The position numbers were made by a program, and so were the translations under genes. Shown here piece by piece: positions 32,416-55,674 of a stretch of DNA of 64,000 nucleotides (positions within the stretch are counted from its first letter, which is position 1; every line of letters begins with the position of its first letter). The notes beneath the pieces were generated by a model. It saw only the letters and a list, made by a program, of their open reading frames with translations, searched no databases and was not told the DNA's origin. Source of the DNA: Patescibacteria group bacterium. Lineage in GTDB: Bacteria > Patescibacteriota > Gracilibacteria > BD1-5 > UBA2023. Location: positions 2,977 to 66,976 of the forward strand of contig JAVHRB010000091.1 of assembly GCA_036171455.1 (NCBI GenBank). Direction: 5' to 3'.

Positions 32416-33141
32416 CTATTGGGGTTCGCAAGAAGGCACTTCGCAAACGAATTTCTGAGCCGCATCGACTCGTTCCAAGTATATCTCCCTTACGATGAAC
32501 ATAGCGACGGCTTCCCGGGCGTTCCGGAATTTTCCAGCCACGAGGTTCGCGTCTATTCCCTCAATCGTCGCCATCACTTCGTCGCTGGTCAATTCGAAGA
32601 ATATCTCTTCGAGCATGGGTCGAACGTATTCCCGGACTTCGTTCTCGGCTTCCCGGGTTCCCACTAGATTGCGAACGAACGGGTATCCCGATTCGAGAAT
32701 GCGTTTGTCCCGAGAGAGCGACTTGTCTTTCCTCTCCAATTTTCGGGAGTATTTTCAAACGGGAGTAAACCTCTGTTCCGATGCGACGTACGCCCGCAGG
32801 ACCAGCGTCTTCTCATATTGGAGGGCGAGCTCCATGCGGTACGGGATATCGTCGTTCCCCCCGGGTCAGGAGAACGAGCCCAGGAGCCGGGCAACGAGAG
32901 TGTTCGGCCGTTCCGACAGGGCATTTTCGACGGAGTAATTGGAAATCCCGTATAACCCCTGGGATTCGCTCACGTACGCGCCCGGCGCATATTCAGTCCC
33001 GGGAGGTTGCAAAACGCTGCCACGGGCCGGATTTCGGTCGTTCCATGGGGTTTCCGGAACAGAATATGCTTCCGCGCGGTACGCATACAGCACGGCGGCA
33101 ATAAAGGCCCATACGAGGACTGCGTTCAAAAATGTTTTCAT
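32416..33141 (-). CDS. hypothetical membrane-anchored/secreted protein, 241 aa
   Basis: Fragments 32866..33141 and 32416..32739 are in one frame, joined across two TGA. N-terminus MKTFLNAVLVWAFIAAVLYAYRAEA. Confidence 0.7.
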
Positions 33142-33208
33142 GTTGGCTTATGGTTAAAGGCTTTCTTCCGCAATCGTCTCTGTCAGGTGTCAATTTCCTC
33201 TACCGTAT

Positions 33209-33994
33209 CTACATCGCCCGTGCACCGTTCGGTTTGCCGAGATTCCCATCAATGCCTTCCGCCGGTTCCTTTTCCGCTTTCCTGACCCCGAACCCTTTCA
33301 GCGCCTTCCTGATACCCGGGTCCTTCACAGATAGCGGCGGGAAGAGCTTGCGGAGGTTCTTCCCGAGTTCCTCGTTTTCTTCCGCGGCACGCTCGTCGAG
33401 GAGTCTCATTTCCCGGGATACCCTCCCTTCTTCCGGTTCCGAAAGAACTTTTCAAAACCCGTCGGACAGGCGCAACATTATGACGTGTCATTTGAACGAG
33501 TAAACCTTCGCGTGTCACGGTTCACATTCCCTTTCCGGAAAAAGGTACTTGAAGCTGAAGTTCCCAAAGATTTTCCCGTCCGTGCCGCAAAGCACGTGAG
33601 CAATCCTCCTCCCTTCACCCGGGATTTTCTCCTTGTGTTCTCGAACTATGACCTTCGCGAAACCGTTCCTGAACGGATGTACGAAAACGACCGCTACCCG
33701 GTTCAACTGCTCTTCGCAAAACCGGAACCGGATGGGGTACCCTCCGTCCGGAGAGAGCCGGAACCCGAACCAATTGCCTTCGCTCCGGACGCGGACGATA
33801 CCGCATGAGTCGACGCAGAAGGTGCCTTCGTCCGCGAAGGGCGCGAGGATGTCCGACCAGGGCTCGTCGTCGTCCAGGAGGGCAAGGTAGAACGGCTCAT
33901 GCCCTTTCTTGTCGAGCTTCCGGACGTGCCAGAGGTAACCGTGTCGCCCGTCCTGGTCGGTCACGGAGACGATGCCTCGTCCGGAGTCGGCCAT
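33209..33994 (-). CDS. hypothetical protein, 261 aa (first gene of the cluster)
   Basis: Fragments 33515..33994 and 33209..33409 are in one frame, joined across TGA 33515-33517, 33488-33490 and 33452-33454. No signal peptide. Confidence 0.7.
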
Positions 33995-34089
33995 GCACCA
34001 GCTTTTGATGTAGTGTCATTTTATCATCCTGTCTGGAATTCAGGAATAGAATCGTTCGTATGCCATGGAATATGAAATTAGGAAATGAG

Positions 34090-34107
34090 CTAGGGAACGT
34101 TCCTTAG
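34090..34107. promoter_or_regulatory. 18-bp near-perfect palindrome (candidate operator)
   Basis: ctagggaac|gttccttag, 8 of 9 arm positions complementary. About 95 nt upstream of the 33994 start codon. Confidence 0.35.
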
Positions 34108-34462
34108 CGGTCATATTATATCCATACTCGTCCGTTTCAGTGCGGACGACCCCATTTTCTTCTATTACACCAACTTGTTTCTACCAACCCGATTTCCGTG
34201 AAAAAAATTCCGCGTGTCTGTGGAAAAGGTTGGGGTATTTTAAAAATTCCATTGTGGCAAAGGGAATCCGCAATTCCGCAATTCCGCCCCTCCGGTTTTT
34301 TCGGGCTCCGTGAGGATTTCACGGGACAGGCGGCTTTTCGGTAAAATAACCTCGCAATCCATTGCCGGTGCCGAAATCCGGGAAAATGCCGTGAAAGCCC
34401 GCGGGGAGCTCGGGAATCCGCCGGTATGAAAAATTATTGTCAATGACCCGGAATATCGTTTT

Positions 34463-34814
34463 TATGACCTTTTCGATACCAATTGACGCAATTATGGCGT
34501 TTTAGGTCATACGTATTAACGATAAATTAACTGTTTTACAATGTACGTTACGAAATGGCTCGATTTCGCATGTTTTCTCATTGGCAAGGCAACCAAACGG
34601 GATTTTTGGCTGGTTTGGCCGGGCGGGTCCGGAAATTTGACAATCCGGGGGTGGGACACGGGGATAGAAGCCATGGGAATCCGACCAGAACGAGCCCATA
34701 ATTTCCCGCGAAAGTGTATTTTTGAAAAAACAAGACCAGTACTGGAACAGTGGGGTTTTAGCGTATGACCTAAAACGACATAATTGCGGTAATTATGATG
34801 GTTTAGGTCATACG
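34463..34814. repeat. two ~50-bp palindromic modules built on CGTATGACCTAAAAC
   Basis: The 15-mer occurs at 34762-34776 (+) and 34499-34513 (-, perfect). A 14-nt copy is at 34801-14 (-), 13 nt of it a perfect inverted match, and a partial copy tatgacct is at 34463-34470 (+). Both modules contain an aattatg core. Confidence 0.8.
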
Positions 34815-34883
34815 TTTTTTCATCGCCCGACATCCCATCGGACCGGGAACCCGAACTCCCGCTTTCCCGTTTCTCCGGACCCC

Positions 34884-34912
34884 CGGAAGGCACGAAAAAT
34901 CCGGGCGGGATA
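34884..34912 (-). terminator. rho-independent terminator after the 35030..35260 gene
   Basis: Stem aatccggg / cccggatt, followed on the minus strand by ttttt. Confidence 0.6.
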
Positions 34913-35029
34913 CCCGGATTCGAGGAGCTTCCCAGCGGTTCGGGACGGGAAGTCCCAATGTCGGAACGCGTGGGAATGCCCGATGGCGGGGAGCGTGACC
35001 GATATCCTCCGCCATCCGATTCCCATTCG

Positions 35030-35260
35030 CTATTTCTTCTTGAAGGTCTCGAAAAACTCCCCGATGTCCATCCCGTCGTAATGGAGGATTTCCCCGCTCT
35101 TCAGGTATACCGCGAGGCTGGACCTCCCGAAAAGCGGGCTTTTGCTTTCGTAACGTATGATATTCTGGTATATGAGCCGGTCTTCTCAGACTTTGAAGGT
35201 CCGGCCCGACGGGGACGGTCCGTTCGAACGGTCGAACATGATTTGGGAAAACTGTGCCAT
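35030..35260 (-). CDS. hypothetical small protein, 76 aa
   Basis: ATG 35260-35258 to TAG 35032-35030 with one TGA (MAQFSQIMFDRSNG...GEFFETFKKK). Not in the ORF track because TGA splits it. Confidence 0.5.
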
Positions 35261-35390
35261 GCTGGGGTTTGATAAAAAAGTATGCCTTTAAGGGATTCGA
35301 AACGGAATCACTTCTACGTTGCATTATATGCGAATTCAACATTCGGGAATAAAATTTCCTCAAGCACACTGGAACGCTGGCTTTTCTCGC

Positions 35391-35418
35391 TTGACAAATA
35401 TTTATTTGTACATATGAT
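35391..35418 (+). promoter_or_regulatory. sigma70-like promoter
   Basis: TTGACA (35391-35396), 16-nt spacer, TATGAT (35413-35418). About 38 nt upstream of ATG 35456. Confidence 0.5.
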
Positions 35419-35455
35419 AGTATGTATTGTATACATACGAACAAACCTAAAAGCT

Positions 35456-35680
35456 ATGCCAGACCCGGTTCCGTCGATTTCCCCAGAAACATTGATGACC
35501 CTCAAGTTAGTGCTCTATCCCATAGCGGTTATGGTAATCTCTTTGATGTTGCAAAGGGGTACTTGCGTCGTGGTAGATTTAGCAAAGAAATTTTACGAAT
35601 TCTTGCTGATTTTGAACAAAGCAGGAACAGTAATCATCATAGGGTACTATATAGGGCTCGCCTATTTCAAGCTCACATAG
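35456..35680 (+). CDS. small 2-TM protein, 74 aa
   Basis: Internal ATG of ORF 35282..35680. Hydrophobic segments LKLVLYPIAVMVISLML and GTVIIIGYYIGLAYF. Confidence 0.5.
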   Translation: MPDPVPSISPETLMTLKLVLYPIAVMVISLMLQRGTCVVVDLAKKFYEFLLILNKAGTVIIIGYYIGLAYFKLT

Positions 35681-35746
35681 GGCTCTTCTCCGTACCGCGA
35701 CGCCTATACGGATAAAAAAATACAAATACCGATAACTCCTCAAAAT

Positions 35747-36508
35747 ATGCCAGTATCAATCCCTGTCAGGTTCGACCAGGACTTCCCACGCAAGGCTGAC
35801 ACCATAGACCTCTCGAGCTACGACTTTTCTTCCAATAGCGGTACGCCGAAACGCATACCCCGGGATACCGTACGGGAAGACGTGCCCATAGCGGATTCAA
35901 ATGGCATGGCATTTCCAGGTTGGGTACCCGCGATACCGGAAACCATTCCTGAAATGGACGGAGAGACGGAATGGGACTGCGCTCGGGACGGCGGACGGGA
36001 AGCGGAACATACCCCTGGAGAAAACGAATCGTTCGCTCCGGAAGCCGGGATGGTCCCGGACGAACTCTGGGAAAGCCTGCTCTACGGCGACGAATCCGGC
36101 ATACCGCCGGTCGAAGTCACTGTTTCGAGTCCAGTCATCGCGAACGAGCGGGCCAGGAAGGAACGCCTGGAGCGCGAGCGGGAACGTCAGAGAGAATCCA
36201 GAGAGCGGAAATACCTTCTTCTCGATATTCTCCTTTCGGTATTCCGGGCGATTGTCCTCTCCCTTGCTGGATTATACCAGCGTTCCGAGCGGAAAGTACA
36301 GGCGATGAAACGGAACGGGTTCCCGGACGCGGAACTCTACAACCCGAAGCAACTCTTCTATATAGCGCTGTCCCTCCCGAATACTGCCGACACTTTCGCG
36401 AAGGTCCGGCTCCTGTTGCCATTGATGCCGGAAAAATTTATTTACAAAATTTTGAAAACCAAAAAAGACACGGTCGCCAGTTACCAAAAAGTCTTCGCGA
36501 AACGGTAG
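35747..36508 (+). CDS. hypothetical protein with acidic N-terminus, charged coil and one TM, 253 aa
   Basis: Intact ORF in the track. ERARKERLERERERQRESRERK followed by LLLDILLSVFRAIVLSLAGL. Confidence 0.6.
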   Translation: MPVSIPVRFDQDFPRKADTIDLSSYDFSSNSGTPKRIPRDTVREDVPIADSNGMAFPGWVPAIPETIPEMDGETEWDCARDGGREAEHTPGENESFAPEAGMVPDELWESLLYGDESGIPPVEVTVSSPVIANERARKERLERERERQRESRERKYLLLDILLSVFRAIVLSLAGLYQRSERKVQAMKRNGFPDAELYNPKQLFYIALSLPNTADTFAKVRLLLPLMPEKFIYKILKTKKDTVASYQKVFAKR

Positions 36509-36618
36509 ATTTTTCGCGGGAGTCCGAGTTTCCCATTTCTCGGTACCGCGCACTGGGAAGCCATTCCTGCCACTTGGCGAACGTTGTCGAACGTGGAGAC
36601 CATAACCAAATCCAAACC

Positions 36619-37068
36619 GTGAGAATATTCCAACCTACCGAACTCCTCATTCATACGGTCGCACTGGGCGAGAAATCCGGCATAACGTACCGCCAGTACT
36701 GGGCGTTCCGGCACGGAGGAAACCCGTACCCGGAGAAGGTACTCGAGACGGTATCCATAGGAAGGAGAGTAGGCGAGACTTTCCCGCTGAAGTACCCGTT
36801 GCTGCCGGTCCGCCTCCCGCGGGTACGGGGCATGGGGAAGCGGGAACTTTGAGCATTCCTCGCGGAGGAGACCGAAAGGAACCGCCCGTACCTCGACCGA
36901 GTGGGAACGGTGCTCGCCAAGGGCATCGAGTCGTACCTGCGGGACGAAACCACGGGAACGGCCGAAACCGCCTTCGTCTGGGTAAGGCTCCCGCGACGGT
37001 ACGCATTTCTCGGTACCCTGCTCGGTCCGGGGGACGCTGACGTGGACGATGGGGAAAAGCCGCCGTAA
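36619..37068 (+). CDS. putative HTH DNA-binding protein, 149 aa
   Basis: Distal part of the frame of ORF 35971..36852, continued through TGA 36850-36852 to TAA 37066-37068. HTH-like ALGEKSGITYRQYWAFRHG. Start uncertain (GTG 36619 or TTG 36574). Confidence 0.45.
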
Positions 37069-37336
37069 CCGGGACTCCCGACCGGGCGCGGAGCTCCGGA
37101 AACCTCATCTCGGAACCGAGTTTGCCGCGTGGACGGCGCGGTTACGGCGCGTCATTTCCCCTCGTGTGCCACGCATCGGGCTTAGAAAATCGGGGTTTCC
37201 GGAAAATCCGGGAACTGAGGGTCTTCCCCGGGGGAAGTGGTCCCGGGAAACGAGACCAACGGAATACGGCGGAATCCAAGGGGGAAGCCCCCTTCCAAAA
37301 TAGACACGGCTTTTCAAAATATATACCAATATTCCA

Positions 37337-37495
37337 ATGAAAAAAACTTTCAAAAAACGCACGATGAATATTCGAAAAGGAACGGGACCCGGTACAAAGA
37401 CCGTCAGGACCGCCCGAGCTGCCGGACATGGCGGCACGGCCGGAACGGTGGTGGTCGCGGTCATCCTCGTGGCAATCCGGATTTTCCTCCGATAG
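37337..37495 (+). CDS. possible small membrane peptide, 52 aa
   Basis: ATG 37337 to TAG 37493-37495. Basic N-terminus then TAGTVVVAVILVAIRIFL. Below the ORF-track cut-off. Confidence 0.3.
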   Translation: MKKTFKKRTMNIRKGTGPGTKTVRTARAAGHGGTAGTVVVAVILVAIRIFLR

Positions 37496-37534
37496 GGACG
37501 GGACTCGACTGATTATTTCCAAACCAATACCAAT

Positions 37535-38125
37535 ATGAATTTTGTAGAACCGATTCGCGACGTGAAAAAGATATCGCAAATCAAGAACATGCTTTCCGGG
37601 TCTGGCGACATCCGGACACTATTGATGTTCGAACTCGGTATAAACAGCGCCCTCCGGGCCAGTGACCTTCTCCGGGTCGCGGTCGGCGACGTGTTCGACC
37701 GCGATGGGACCGTTCGGGATTTCTTCGAGATACGGGAGAAGAAAACGGGAAAGCGGGGCAGGATTTCCATTACCCCGAAGGTTCGGGAAACCCTGGGGCT
37801 GTATTGGAAGACATATCCGCATGTGACCGACGTTCCGTCGAATTTCCTGTTCTTCGCGAAAAAGACCTTCCCGCTCGGGAGCAAAGCCATTTGACGGGGT
37901 CGCGCATGGGAAATAATAAGCGATATTTGCGAAGACGTCGGGCTTCAGGGAAAATTCGGCGTACATACGCTAAGGAAATGTTTTGGGTTCCATGCGCGAA
38001 AGAATTCCATTCCGATGGAGCTGATTATGGCCAGATTGAACCATGCGAATTCCGAAGTCACGAAAAGGTACATCTGAATCACAGACGACGAAATCGACGA
38101 GGCATGCCAGAAACTCGATTTGTAG
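37535..38125 (+). CDS. short tyrosine recombinase/integrase (catalytic domain only), 196 aa
   Basis: Fragment 37535..37894 continues through TGA 37892-37894 and one more to TAG 38123-38125. Catalytic residues in order: ALRASDLL (Arg), HTLRK (H-x-x-R), RLNHANSEVTKRYI (His...Tyr). Confidence 0.9.
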
Positions 38126-41812: not shown

Positions 41813-41932
41813 GTGCCTTTACTTCCTCCCTCCATGGCTTTAAATGGCGATTAAGCCCGATAAGCGGCGATACTCCGCTACAAGCGTTTAGTATGGTTCG
41901 AGCGATAAATTGTTCGGGGAGCCATAGCATAA

Positions 41933-43390
41933 TCAACATATTTTCGCCCTCTTCAAGAGCTCGTTCTCCTGAATAGTAAGCGACAAATCATCCTTCGCAA
42001 AAAGTTCAACCTGAATTCCCTTCAGAACCTTGAATTTCCGCGAAGGATTTTTTGTAGCGTAGGCTGGGAGCAGGTTATCGAGGAGTTTAACCCATTTTAT
42101 GATTAGCCCCCTGGTGCTACGGGTATCGTCAGCAATGGTTGTTATTCGTTCTTCAAGATACTTCTTCCTTCGAAGCAATGAGAGCGAAGTCTCCTTATAA
42201 TCTTCGTCCGTAATGATTTCCGCAAGGAGCTTTTTCATAAGGGACTGTCGCTTTCATTCTATTCCTTCAAGTTCTTCCAATAATATATTCCTTTCGGAAA
42301 TCGTTCAGCTATCGGTCTTGAACTCCGTATTCAGGGCCATTTCCATATCTGAAATGAAGCCGTCGGGAAAAGAAAACCCCTTCATATAGTCATTCATTTT
42401 CTCAAAAAGGAACTTTTGTGAATAGTTCAACCTCCTTACGATGCGGTTTTGTCATCGATAGTAGATATAGGGGTTTCCGTATCGGTTGCGTGTTTCGTAA
42501 GAAATAAGTGGGTGTCCGTTGTAGTCATAAATCATTCCACGAAAATGTGCGTCATATGCCATATCTGGCTTTGACCTCAATTGCCTACGAATAGCATTCA
42601 CCTTCTCAAACGTGGCGCAACTGATAATAGGCTTGTATCAGGGCATTCGTATTTCGGCTTCTCATAGTTTCCCCCGCTGTATTCCTATATAGAATGGGTT
42701 TTTCAGCATTTGTTCGATGGTCGATACGTTTTTCTTGTATCAACATTCAAGGAAATACGCCGAAATCGACTTGAATTGTTCTCACTTTAATCTCATTTCA
42801 AAGGCCTTTTTCATAATTTCCGCTTCTTTCTCGACCACCAACACGTCGTGTCATATTCTTCCGAACTCATCGAAGAACTGATGGTTCTTGTATCAAAAAG
42901 GCGTAGGAGACATAACTCTGCCAGCTTGGAATAATGTTTCCATTTTTCTTCTGGTATTGCTCGACCTCATTTGATTGTCCGCCTTTGACATGAGGAATGA
43001 TATTCAGAGTATGAGCGCACTGAAAATATCGGTTCCATTAAAAAACTGCTTACTTTCGGAGGCATAAAAACCTTTGATATGGTTTTTATTTATTAGCTCC
43101 GTGAAGTAAGCAGCATCTATGGTGTTTCTTGATATTCTCGTTGGGTCGTAGGCGATGACGTAATCGTATCAACCCTTTTTACAAATAGAGAGTAATTGTT
43201 TGAAACCTGGTCGTTTTCCTTCATCTTTGGCACTTTTATGGTCTTCTATAATGATGGTCTCAAGGTCATAATCAGCAGCGAGTTTTTCGCAGTGTTGCCT
43301 TTGAGTTTCGATAGTAATCTGTTGTCGGTCATCTCTGTCGGTAGATTTCCGCAAATAGATTACGGCTCGCTGTCTTTTCATTCGTTTCAT
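41933..43390 (-). CDS. large serine recombinase, 485 aa
   Basis: I translated the full frame: fragments 43169..43390 and 41933..42238 are joined by an open frame containing only TGA. Resolvase motifs AVIYLRKSTD, YDYVIAYDPTRISRN. Recombinase domain PF-[TGA]-YK. C-terminal coiled region. Confidence 0.9.
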
Positions 43391-55304: not shown

Positions 55305-55674
55305 CTTACCGTTAATCTTACAAGTATAGTCGAATGAATAAATCACTTTTAGTTTCTTACTCGTCGTCATCTTCTTCGTCCTCACATCTTTCCACGACCA
55401 CTTTGTAGGCGTTTTCTACGAATTCATAGGCTTCGGAGAAGTGTTCCCGTATGTATTCCACGAGCGGCAAAAACGTTTCAATATGTTTAATCTTTCTTTG
55501 ATTGGGGGAGCCATTCAACAATTCAAGCAGAAATCTCAGACTTGCTCTGGGATTTTTGTTTTGTCATTATCAAAGTAAACAAGCCTGTATTTCACTTACC
55601 TAGGAATTTATGGTGCAGTTGTTGTATTTTTTGCAACAACTGCTTTTTATACAATTACCTTATAAAATAAAGTC

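What the first reader, a model, noticed from the sequence alone, without database searches (positions are those of the whole stretch)
33995..35029. About 1 kb of noncoding DNA with two palindromic CGTATGACCTAAAAC modules next to the recombinase module
No credible ORF survives here in any frame under table 25. The 15-mer CGTATGACCTAAAAC occurs at 34762-34776, and its perfect reverse complement is at 34499-34513. A further inverted copy is at 34801-34814 and a partial direct copy at 34463-34470. Together these form two ~50-bp palindromic modules 300 bp apart that share an aattatg core. An 18-bp palindrome (34090-34107) and a cgcaattc tandem (34268-34285) are also present. The region separates the envelope cluster from the regulatory/integrase module. 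It is a good candidate for a recombination (att) region, an origin of transfer or replication, or a repressor-operator array.
Basis: seen in the sequence. Interest (0 to 1): 0.6.

Follow-up and report, generated by a model that had tools for sequence, protein, structure and literature searches.

The report
Paired dyad DNA sites upstream of operon
A 1-kb gene-free stretch on a genomic island of a Gracilibacteria-type bacterium carries four copies of one short DNA word arranged as two matching 49-bp palindromes; these most likely are protein-binding control sites for the neighbouring 12-gene secreted-protein operon, not the island's attachment site, and a DNA flip-switch could not be shown or excluded.

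Summary
More exactly, there are two modules with identical geometry, TATGACCT-N33-AGGTCATA (34463-34511 and 34764-34812). Their inner arms form a 27-nt inverted repeat (26/27) around 248 bp; simulations reach 16 nt at most. The region is non-coding, matches no Rfam family, and the motif is unique in this genome. It is absent from 400 genomes of the class, 185,579 species genomes, IMG/VR, phages and plasmids.

The att reading fails. The island ends lie at a tRNA-Asn gene, at about 41.9 kb and at 55.5 kb, and the region has no repeat partner elsewhere in the window. An origin is unlikely, with no Rep gene, no iteron array and no DnaA-box cluster.

An invertible switch fits the geometry and a 196-aa tyrosine recombinase lies 2.7 kb away. 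However, every assembly that crosses a boundary of the segment shows the same orientation. Loci with homologous recombinases lack such modules, and one strain has seven changes in one repeat arm.

That variant keeps the outer box and the spacing, which favours protein-binding operator-type dyads (about 0.4). No regulator was identified, and the "HTH protein" is not supported. Interest is modest.

The parts
33995..35029 (.). 1,035-bp non-coding region between the start of the 12-gene minus-strand cluster and the stop of a 76-aa minus-strand gene
   Evidence: ORF lists. No coding GC3 pattern. No tblastx hit. No Rfam hit.
34463..34513 (.). Module A: imperfect palindrome TATGACCT-N33-AGGTCATA(CG). 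The left arm is degenerate outside the 8-mer core.
   Evidence: It is a weak hairpin as RNA (-13 kcal/mol, z about -1.9).
34762..34814 (.). Module B: 53-bp palindrome with 24-nt arms, 2 mismatches plus 1 G-T pair, and 5-nt centre GCGGT
   Evidence: pair I2. Hairpin of -26.4 kcal/mol, z = -4.9.
34487..34513 (.). Left arm of the 27-nt inverted repeat (26/27), which is the inner half of module A
34762..34788 (.). Right arm of the 27-nt inverted repeat, which is the inner half of module B. It is polymorphic in one sample, with 7 clustered changes.
34514..34761 (.). 248-bp segment enclosed by the inverted repeat. Its left end is AT-rich and it contains one GGGAATCCG box. The same orientation is seen in every assembly that crosses a boundary.
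34491..34519 (-). Sigma-70-like promoter match TTAATA-17-CATAAT pointing at the 12-gene cluster. The 15-mer box forms its spacer.
   Evidence: 9 of 12 matches; consensus match only
34815..34820 (+). T6 run directly after the module B hairpin, giving a terminator-like shape for plus-strand transcripts
34895..34921 (-). GC-rich 10-bp hairpin followed by U5 on the minus strand, about 110 nt after the stop of the 76-aa gene. It is a likely terminator of that gene.
   Evidence: -25.6 kcal/mol. Not called by the strict scan.
34262..34270 (+). GGGAATCCG box 1, followed by the 8-nt tandem TCCGCAAT x2.6 at 34267-34287
   Evidence: The second tandem unit differs at 4 positions in sample SRR25490548.
34412..34420 (+). 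GGGAATCCG box 2
   Evidence: 3 boxes in 1 kb against 34 in the whole 1.27-Mb genome
34675..34683 (+). GGGAATCCG box 3, inside the 248-bp segment
34090..34120 (-). Proximal elements before the ATG at 33994: an 18-bp imperfect palindrome (34090-34107), a fifth TATGACC (34109-34115, minus strand) and a perfect TATAAT (34115-34120, minus strand)
   Evidence: The fifth box is not significant on its own (0.15 expected per kb).
33209..33994 (-). First gene of the 12-gene exported or membrane-protein cluster (an ORFan), transcribed away from the region
   Evidence: no homologue other than itself
35030..35260 (-). 76-aa ORFan gene transcribed towards the region
   Evidence: The AlphaFold model has low confidence (pLDDT 60).
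37535..38125 (+). 196-aa catalytic-domain-only tyrosine recombinase, 2.7 kb from module B
   Evidence: PF00589 at 1.2e-17 and phrog_216 at 2e-41. Weak Xer and FimB/E-type hits below cut-off.

Best explanation
The region is the cis-regulatory region of the 12-gene secreted or membrane-protein operon that starts at 33994 on the minus strand. Its core is four copies of the box (CG)TATGACCT(AAAAC), arranged as two dyads with identical internal spacing. The 8-mer cores lie 41 bp apart, about four helical turns, and the dyads lie 301 bp apart.

Inferred mechanism: a dimeric or tetrameric sequence-specific DNA-binding protein, not yet identified, occupies both dyads. It may bridge them by looping the 300 bp between them. 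In that way it controls the promoter-like element whose -35/-10 spacer is the inner box of module A (34519 to 34491, pointing at the operon), and possibly transcription reading through from the right.

Shown: the repeat architecture, its statistical reality, its uniqueness, the non-coding status, the position relative to the genes, and conservation of box and spacing in a strain variant. Inferred: protein binding, looping and the promoter.
For: Four boxes form two dyads with exactly the same N33 spacing.

In module A's left arm the 8-mer TATGACCT is intact, while the flanking positions are changed. This suggests constraint on the box itself.

A natural variant (Logan contig from SRR25490537) carries 7 clustered changes in module B's left arm. 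It keeps GTATGACCTAAAC and the total length, and changes the inner and central part without compensating changes in the right arm. That fits protein-binding boxes at fixed spacing better than a hairpin or a crossover core.

Module A is a poor hairpin, so what the two modules share is the DNA word, not a structure.

Three of the four boxes are followed after 2 nt by CATAAT. One of these forms a 9-of-12 promoter match aimed at the operon.

A second word, GGGAATCCG, occurs 3 times on one strand in this 1 kb, against 34 in the whole genome. This points to a composite control region.

The 76-aa gene upstream appears to have its own hairpin-U5 terminator, so the operon needs a promoter within this gap.
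Against: No regulator is identified. The neighbouring 149-aa 'HTH' protein shows no DNA-binding fold or family, and the 76-aa protein is uninformative.

The promoter is only a consensus match, at a level the shuffles also reach (3 found against 1.8 expected). It lies 490 nt from the start codon.

There is no conservation outside this species, so no comparative support.

A 38-41-bp half-site separation is unusually long for a simple dimeric operator.
Confidence: 0.4

Rival explanations
1. Invertible DNA switch, or a pair of recombination sites. The two modules would be inverted target sites of the island's 196-aa tyrosine recombinase. Flipping the 248-bp segment would exchange the sequence that supplies the -35 element (TTAATA against TTTTAG) next to the fixed -10 (CATAAT) in the repeat arm. 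That would turn the 12-gene surface-protein operon on or off, as in fimS with FimB/FimE.
For: A 27-nt inverted repeat (26/27) lies around 248 bp, in a non-coding gap upstream of an operon of exported proteins. A catalytic-domain-only tyrosine recombinase lies 2.7 kb away, with weak similarity to Xer and FimB/E-type invertase models. A promoter-like element straddles the left boundary. Each module is dyad-symmetric with a dif-like inner CATAATT-N5-AATTATG.
Against: No assembly shows the flipped form. Four assemblies span the whole segment in the window's orientation: the genome itself, Logan SRR25490533, NCBI GCA_036170835.1 and SRR25490548. Two more cross its right boundary in the same orientation: SRR25490542 and SRR25490537.

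The dyad centres of the two modules differ (GACGC against GCGGT or its complement ACCGC). One strain has 7 changes in one arm.

Eleven loci with homologous recombinases (54-63% identity among Gracilibacteria relatives) have no comparable paired modules. That recombinase family sits next to variable defence cargo, as an island integrase would.

Contigs show only the majority orientation, so this test is weak.
Confidence: 0.2
2. Functionless or decaying relic. An inverted duplication, a single-copy MITE-like insertion, or a quasi-palindrome homogenised by template switching or gene conversion, with no present role.
For: The motif is unique and not conserved beyond the species. Multi-nucleotide clustered changes occur in exactly the repeated motifs, while 1.6 kb of flanking DNA is identical. 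This looks like conversion or template-switch events. The near-identity of the inner arms may therefore be recent. A possible short flanking duplication, CGTTTT, lies at 34457-34462 and 34813-34818.
Against: The 8-mer core and the N33 spacing are kept in all four arms and in the variant, although neighbouring positions diverged. There are no other copies in the genome and no transposase. Part of the 'duplication' is simply the CG of the motif.
Confidence: 0.15
3. Replication origin or partition site of the excised island. Two sets of initiator- or centromere-protein binding sites would flank an AT-rich unwinding region, as in SaPI-type or iteron origins.
For: Repeats flank a segment whose left end is AT-rich, and the genes on the two sides mostly face away from the region. 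The same 11-mer TAGGTCATACG is the iteron core of an unrelated TrfA-type plasmid origin found in a metagenome. This shows such a word can serve as an iteron.
Against: There are no TrfA, Rep, Par or relaxase homologues in contig C91 or in the scanned neighbours. There are only four boxes, arranged as dyads and not as phased direct iterons. There is one DnaA-like box at one mismatch. That gene had no Pfam or PHROG hit in my scans.
Confidence: 0.1
4. RNA-level element: a plus-strand small RNA ending at the module B hairpin plus U6, or a structured leader in which the 51-nt arms pair.
For: Module B folds to -26 kcal/mol and is followed by T6. The 400-nt region folds better than shuffles on both strands, with z of -3.7 and -4.9. 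There is a weak plus-strand promoter match at 34318-34347.
Against: There is no Rfam match even at E up to 1. The fold scores follow trivially from the DNA repeats. Module A is a poor hairpin. The natural variant changes one arm with no compensating change.
Confidence: 0.1

Closest known systems
Paired, looping operators of bacterial repressors (for example gal OE/OI, lac O1/O2, deo, and CI of temperate phages)
   Same: Dyad-symmetric sites occur in two copies a few hundred bp apart, around or over a promoter, upstream of an operon.
   Different: The half-site cores are 41 bp apart within each dyad, far wider than the usual 16-20-bp operators. No cognate repressor gene is recognisable. The promoter is only predicted.
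E. coli fimS switch with FimB/FimE, and related invertons (MrpI in Proteus, RecV in C. difficile, the M. penetrans mpl promoters)
   Same: Short inverted repeats lie around a segment of about 250-300 bp, upstream of surface-protein genes. A recombinase of about 200 aa lacking an N-terminal DNA-binding domain lies nearby.
   Different: No flipped copy appears in any of the six assemblies. The recombinase is separated from the repeats by four genes and belongs to a family found beside island cargo. The dyad centres of the two sites differ. Each site is a 49-53-bp palindrome and not a 9-30-bp repeat.
Xer/dif-type core sites and pdif modules
   Same: The inner palindrome CATAATT-N5-AATTATG recalls the CATAA...TTATG inner arms of dif (recalled from knowledge, not tested). 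The recombinase's best curated hits are Xer models, all below cut-off.
   Different: The spacing does not equal the 6-bp dif centre. The outer 15-mers have no counterpart in dif. No gene module lies between the sites.
Iteron origins (TrfA/oriV of IncP-type plasmids; SaPI ori)
   Same: A repeated binding word lies on both sides of an AT-rich stretch. The identical 11-mer is used as an iteron in one TrfA plasmid contig.
   Different: There is no initiator gene, too few boxes, a dyad arrangement instead of a phased direct one, and no shared protein with that plasmid.

Membership tests
Attachment (att) site of an integrative element | Lies at the junction between element and host DNA | tested here: not met
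   The junctions are elsewhere. C17 ends and C91 starts within tRNA-Asn. The GC shift and the GGGGAGCCAT core lie at window 41917-41926, and host genes such as argS resume after 55.5 kb.
Attachment (att) site of an integrative element | A direct-repeat partner at the other end of the element | tested here: not met
   No exact match of 16 nt or more between 33995-35029 and the rest of the window. The tRNA-derived repeat pair is C91:60-121 with window 55505-55566.
Invertible promoter switch (fimS type) | Inverted repeats flanking a short segment in non-coding DNA | tested here: met
   27-nt arms, 26/27 complementary, 248 bp apart. Simulations reach 16 nt at most.
Invertible promoter switch (fimS type) | Both orientations exist in the population | tested here: inconclusive
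   Only one orientation appears: four assemblies span the segment and two more cross its right boundary.
Invertible promoter switch (fimS type) | A dedicated invertase linked to the repeats across related loci | tested here: not met
   Eleven loci with homologous recombinases have no paired modules or comparable non-coding inverted repeats.
Invertible promoter switch (fimS type) | An outward-facing promoter carried by the segment | tested here: inconclusive
   Only a 9-of-12 match straddling the left boundary.
Iteron-type replication origin or oriT | Adjacent initiator or relaxase gene | tested here: not met
   No Rep, TrfA, relaxase or Par domain in the scanned ORFs. TrfA tblastn on C91 was negative. 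Not every small ORF of the island was scanned.
Iteron-type replication origin or oriT | Array of phased direct iterons plus DnaA boxes or an AT-rich unwinding element | tested here: not met
   Four boxes as two dyads. The only tandem is an 8-mer at 2.6 copies. One DnaA-like box at one mismatch.
Repressor-operator array | Dyad-symmetric repeated sites | tested here: met
   Two TATGACCT-N33-AGGTCATA dyads.
Repressor-operator array | Overlap with a promoter | tested here: inconclusive
   The 15-mer is the spacer of a promoter-like match. No transcript data.
Repressor-operator array | Identifiable cognate DNA-binding protein | tested here: not met
   The 149-aa neighbour has no HTH by Pfam, NCBIfam, AlphaFold or Foldseek. 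No HTH domain in the flanking genes scanned.
MITE or other non-autonomous transposon | Multiple copies in the genome or in relatives | tested here: not met
   Single locus in the genome. Absent from 60 relatives by BLAST and 400 class genomes by pattern.
Known structured RNA (Rfam) | Match to a covariance model | tested here: not met
   No hit at E up to 1 over 33000-36000.

The most novel reading that the evidence does not exclude
The two modules are the target sites of a minimal 196-aa tyrosine recombinase, and the 248-bp segment is a fim-like invertible promoter. It would phase-vary a 12-gene operon of secreted or surface proteins on a genomic island of a Gracilibacteria (candidate phyla radiation) episymbiont. 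My literature searches found no paper that mentions invertible DNA or invertons together with Gracilibacteria or Patescibacteria.
Probability: 0.17. Interest if true: 0.65.

Novelty: new member of a known kind. Interest (0 to 1): 0.3.

Why it matters
If the boxes are operators, they give a handle for finding the regulator of a large, island-borne operon of secreted ORFan proteins. The host is a small-genome Gracilibacteria-type bacterium, a group whose gene regulation is almost unstudied. If they are instead recombination sites, this would be a phase-variation switch in such an organism. As it stands this is a single, species-restricted regulatory-looking locus with no experimental or comparative support, so its weight is modest.

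Tried and rejected
1. **15-mer in IMG/VR.** There were 31 single hits, none with two copies, which is the chance level.

2. **Two-arm pattern in JGI metagenomes.** The one hit (L058) is an IncP-like plasmid origin with about 14 iterons TAGGTCATACGACA next to trfA, kleE and trb genes. It shares no protein with the window, and there is no TrfA in C91. I judge it a coincidence.

3. **Palindrome patterns in wider collections.** I scanned 400 genomes of the class, 185,579 species genomes and IMG/VR, and ran BLAST against phages and plasmids. Nothing matched.

4. **Synteny.** The genes g35282-g35747-g36619-integrase form a conserved module in G016, G021 and the own contig C4. Those loci have no long gap and no paired dyads. 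An inverted repeat near the integrase in L056 lies inside coding ORFs.

5. **Homologues of the flanking genes.** The 261-aa first gene and the 149-aa protein have no detectable homologues in the word-indexed 5.8-billion-protein set.

6. **'HTH protein'.** The AlphaFold model (pLDDT 70) and a Foldseek search of the PDB gave no DNA-binding fold. The 76-aa protein model is of low confidence and I did not search with it.

7. **Large-serine-recombinase att site.** The 50-bp imperfect palindromes resemble attP in size. However, the serine recombinases here and in G016 abut tRNA-Asn, and the modules share nothing with that junction. I rejected this reading.

8. **Donor for the variant arm.** No donor sequence exists elsewhere in the genome.

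10. **More sibling contigs over module A.** None reach it.

Full report
**Context**

The window is C91:2977-66976 of a 1.27-Mb, 103-contig genome. Long ORFs appear only when TGA is read as sense. At integrase residue 181 the TGA aligns with Gly in 29 of 30 homologues, which supports table 25. Family-level relatives are named Candidatus Gracilibacteria.

GC content is about 50% up to about 41.9 kb and about 38% beyond. The left part carries:
- a type I R-M system with AbiJ and GmrSD genes;
- ORFans;
- a 12-gene minus-strand cluster ending with its first gene at 33209-33994;
- a plus-strand module ending in a 196-aa tyrosine recombinase at 37535-38125.

The AT-rich part carries two large serine recombinases and a type III R-M/OLD block. 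Host genes such as argS follow.

**The observation**

The 15-mer gives 3 matches against 0.06 expected, and 0 of 100 shuffles reach 3.

A sharper description is two modules with identical geometry, TATGACCT-N33-AGGTCATA, at 34463-34511 and 34764-34812. Their inner halves, 34487-34513 and 34762-34788, are a 27-nt inverted repeat with one mismatch enclosing 248 bp. Simulated sequences of the same composition give 12.5 nt on average and never more than 16.

Module B is a good 24-nt-arm palindrome followed by T6. Module A has a degenerate left arm that keeps only the 8-mer core.

Other features of the region:
- A second word, GGGAATCCG, occurs three times on one strand here, against 34 times in the whole genome.
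- ORFs inside the region lack the codon-position GC signature of the real neighbouring genes.
- There is no tblastx, Rfam, phage or plasmid match.

**Uniqueness**

The motif occurs only here in the genome. BLAST of the whole region against 60 relatives gives nothing meaningful. The palindrome pattern is absent from 400 genomes of the class, from 185,579 species genomes and from IMG/VR.

The single metagenome hit is the iteron array of an unrelated TrfA plasmid. No protein is shared with the window and C91 has no TrfA. I treat it as coincidence, and as an illustration that such a word can be a protein-binding iteron.

**Not an att site**

Contig C17 ends and C91 begins inside one tRNA-Asn gene, with a 55-nt overlap. 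The tRNA 3' end and its downstream hairpin recur at window 55505-55566 (78% over 64 nt, with a 16-nt exact core). The core GGGGAGCCAT also lies at 41917-41926, inside the 3' end of the first serine-recombinase gene and exactly at the GC shift.

In relative G016 the homologous serine-recombinase gene overlaps a tRNA-Asn gene. An independent Logan contig of 44,893 bp equals C91:26-44918 and stops at window 41942. The simplest reading is two islands in tandem at tRNA-Asn.

The 34-35-kb region is internal to the first island and has no repeat partner of 16 nt or more elsewhere in the window.

**The recombinase**

It is a catalytic-domain-only protein (PF00589, phrog_216). Its hits to Xer and FimB/E models are weak and below cut-off.

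The family is large: 260 proteins at E of 1e-20 or better, with identities of 48-63% among the full-length homologues listed. It sits beside variable cargo such as CBASS, Gabija and MmeI-type systems. That fits an island integrase better than a dedicated invertase.

In three loci it follows homologues of the same three upstream genes. None of eleven loci with homologues has paired dyad modules or a comparable non-coding inverted repeat.

The 149-aa 'HTH protein' has no family hit. Its model is a beta-sheet plus helices with no PDB match.

**Population data**

Exact-protein look-ups recovered independent assemblies of the same element. Four assemblies span the whole segment and agree in orientation:
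- the genome itself;
- Logan SRR25490533 (100% identical);
- NCBI GCA_036170835.1 (100% identical);
- SRR25490548 (covering 34224-36273).

Two more, SRR25490542 and SRR25490537, cross the right boundary in the same orientation. No flipped form was seen, although contigs report only the majority state.

Two haplotypes differ from the window only by clustered changes within the repeated motifs:
- Four changes in the second CGCAATTC unit (SRR25490548).
- Seven changes at 34762-34787 in module B's left arm (SRR25490537). The other 1.6 kb of that contig is identical.

The second variant keeps GTATGACCTAAAC and the overall length. It alters the inner part and the centre of the dyad, and the right arm shows no compensating change. 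No donor sequence exists elsewhere in the genome.

**Weighing the models**

The features that are retained are the 8-13-nt box, its four copies and the exact N33 spacing. The features that vary are the inner palindrome and the dyad centre. Module A is a poor hairpin.

This pattern favours sequence-specific protein binding at fixed geometry. It argues against a hairpin or RNA function, and against a crossover core that must be identical in two partner sites. Even in the window the two dyad centres differ (GACGC against GCGGT or ACCGC).

On the minus strand the 76-aa gene is followed by a GC-rich hairpin with U5 (34921-34895). The operon therefore probably needs its own promoter in the gap. The only candidate from the scan is TTAATA-17-CATAAT at 34519-34491, whose spacer is the 15-mer box. 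A perfect TATAAT with a fifth TATGACC lies nearer the start codon.

I therefore rank the models as follows:

| Model | Confidence |
|---|---|
| Operator-type control region | about 0.4 |
| Invertible switch | about 0.2 |
| Functionless relic | about 0.15 |
| Origin or partition site | about 0.1 |
| RNA element | about 0.1 |

All mechanistic steps (binding, looping, promoter activity) are inferred. Only the anatomy, its statistics, its uniqueness, the island borders and the polymorphism are shown.

**Novelty and verdict**

The feature is real and non-random, but it is a single, species-restricted locus of a familiar general kind. The att reading is refuted and the origin reading is weak. The operator reading is plausible but has no identified protein. 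The most interesting reading, a phase-variation switch in a Gracilibacteria episymbiont, is not excluded and needs read-level data. My literature searches found no paper that mentions invertible DNA or invertons together with Gracilibacteria or Patescibacteria. Interest is 0.3.

Noticed in passing
G000:C17 end, C91:1-121, window 41890-41945 and window 55505-55566: The window appears to hold two genomic islands in tandem at one tRNA-Asn gene: a GC-rich island of about 45 kb and an AT-rich one of about 13.6 kb. The tRNA 3' end and terminator are repeated at 55505-55566. The core GGGGAGCCAT is repeated inside the 3' end of the serine-recombinase gene at 41917-41926. In relative G016 the homologous gene overlaps tRNA-Asn. 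A Logan contig of the same organism stops at 41942.
   Followed up: partly
window 35282-38125; L052 4430-8588; L053 8962-10585; L057 5964-8591: There is a conserved four-gene module: a small membrane protein, a protein of about 190-250 aa with a TM helix, a protein of about 150-180 aa with an unknown beta/alpha fold, and a 196-aa tyrosine recombinase. It occurs in several Gracilibacteria genomes, including a second copy in this genome (contig C4). The 149-aa partner has no detectable family or structural match.
   Followed up: partly
window 34277-34281 and 34762-34787 (contigs L068, L069): Strain variants from sibling samples differ from the window only by tight clusters of 4 and 7 substitutions inside the repeated motifs, while the flanking 1.6 kb is identical. 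This suggests single multi-nucleotide events such as template switching or conversion, not gradual drift.
   Followed up: partly
L058 1320-1900 (Ga0116153_10002343): An IncP-like plasmid contig (trfA, kleE, trb/virB genes) has about 14 iterons TAGGTCATACGACA in both orientations. They share an 11-mer with the window's box although the two sequences have no protein in common.
   Followed up: yes
L060/L061 6100-14800: In another Gracilibacteria contig, two copies of the small recombinase lie about 8 kb apart. The first is preceded by an HxlR-type HTH gene, and a Rep_1 (rolling-circle) gene lies between the copies. This may be tandem small integrated replicons.
   Followed up: no
That ORF had no Pfam or PHROG hit in my scans.
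   Followed up: partly
   Followed up: no
window 35391-35418: A near-consensus promoter, TTGACA-16-TATGAT, lies inside the 132-aa ORF call at 35282-35680. Homology and gene calls on other contigs support a shorter 74-aa gene starting at 35456, so the promoter is upstream of the real start.
   Followed up: partly
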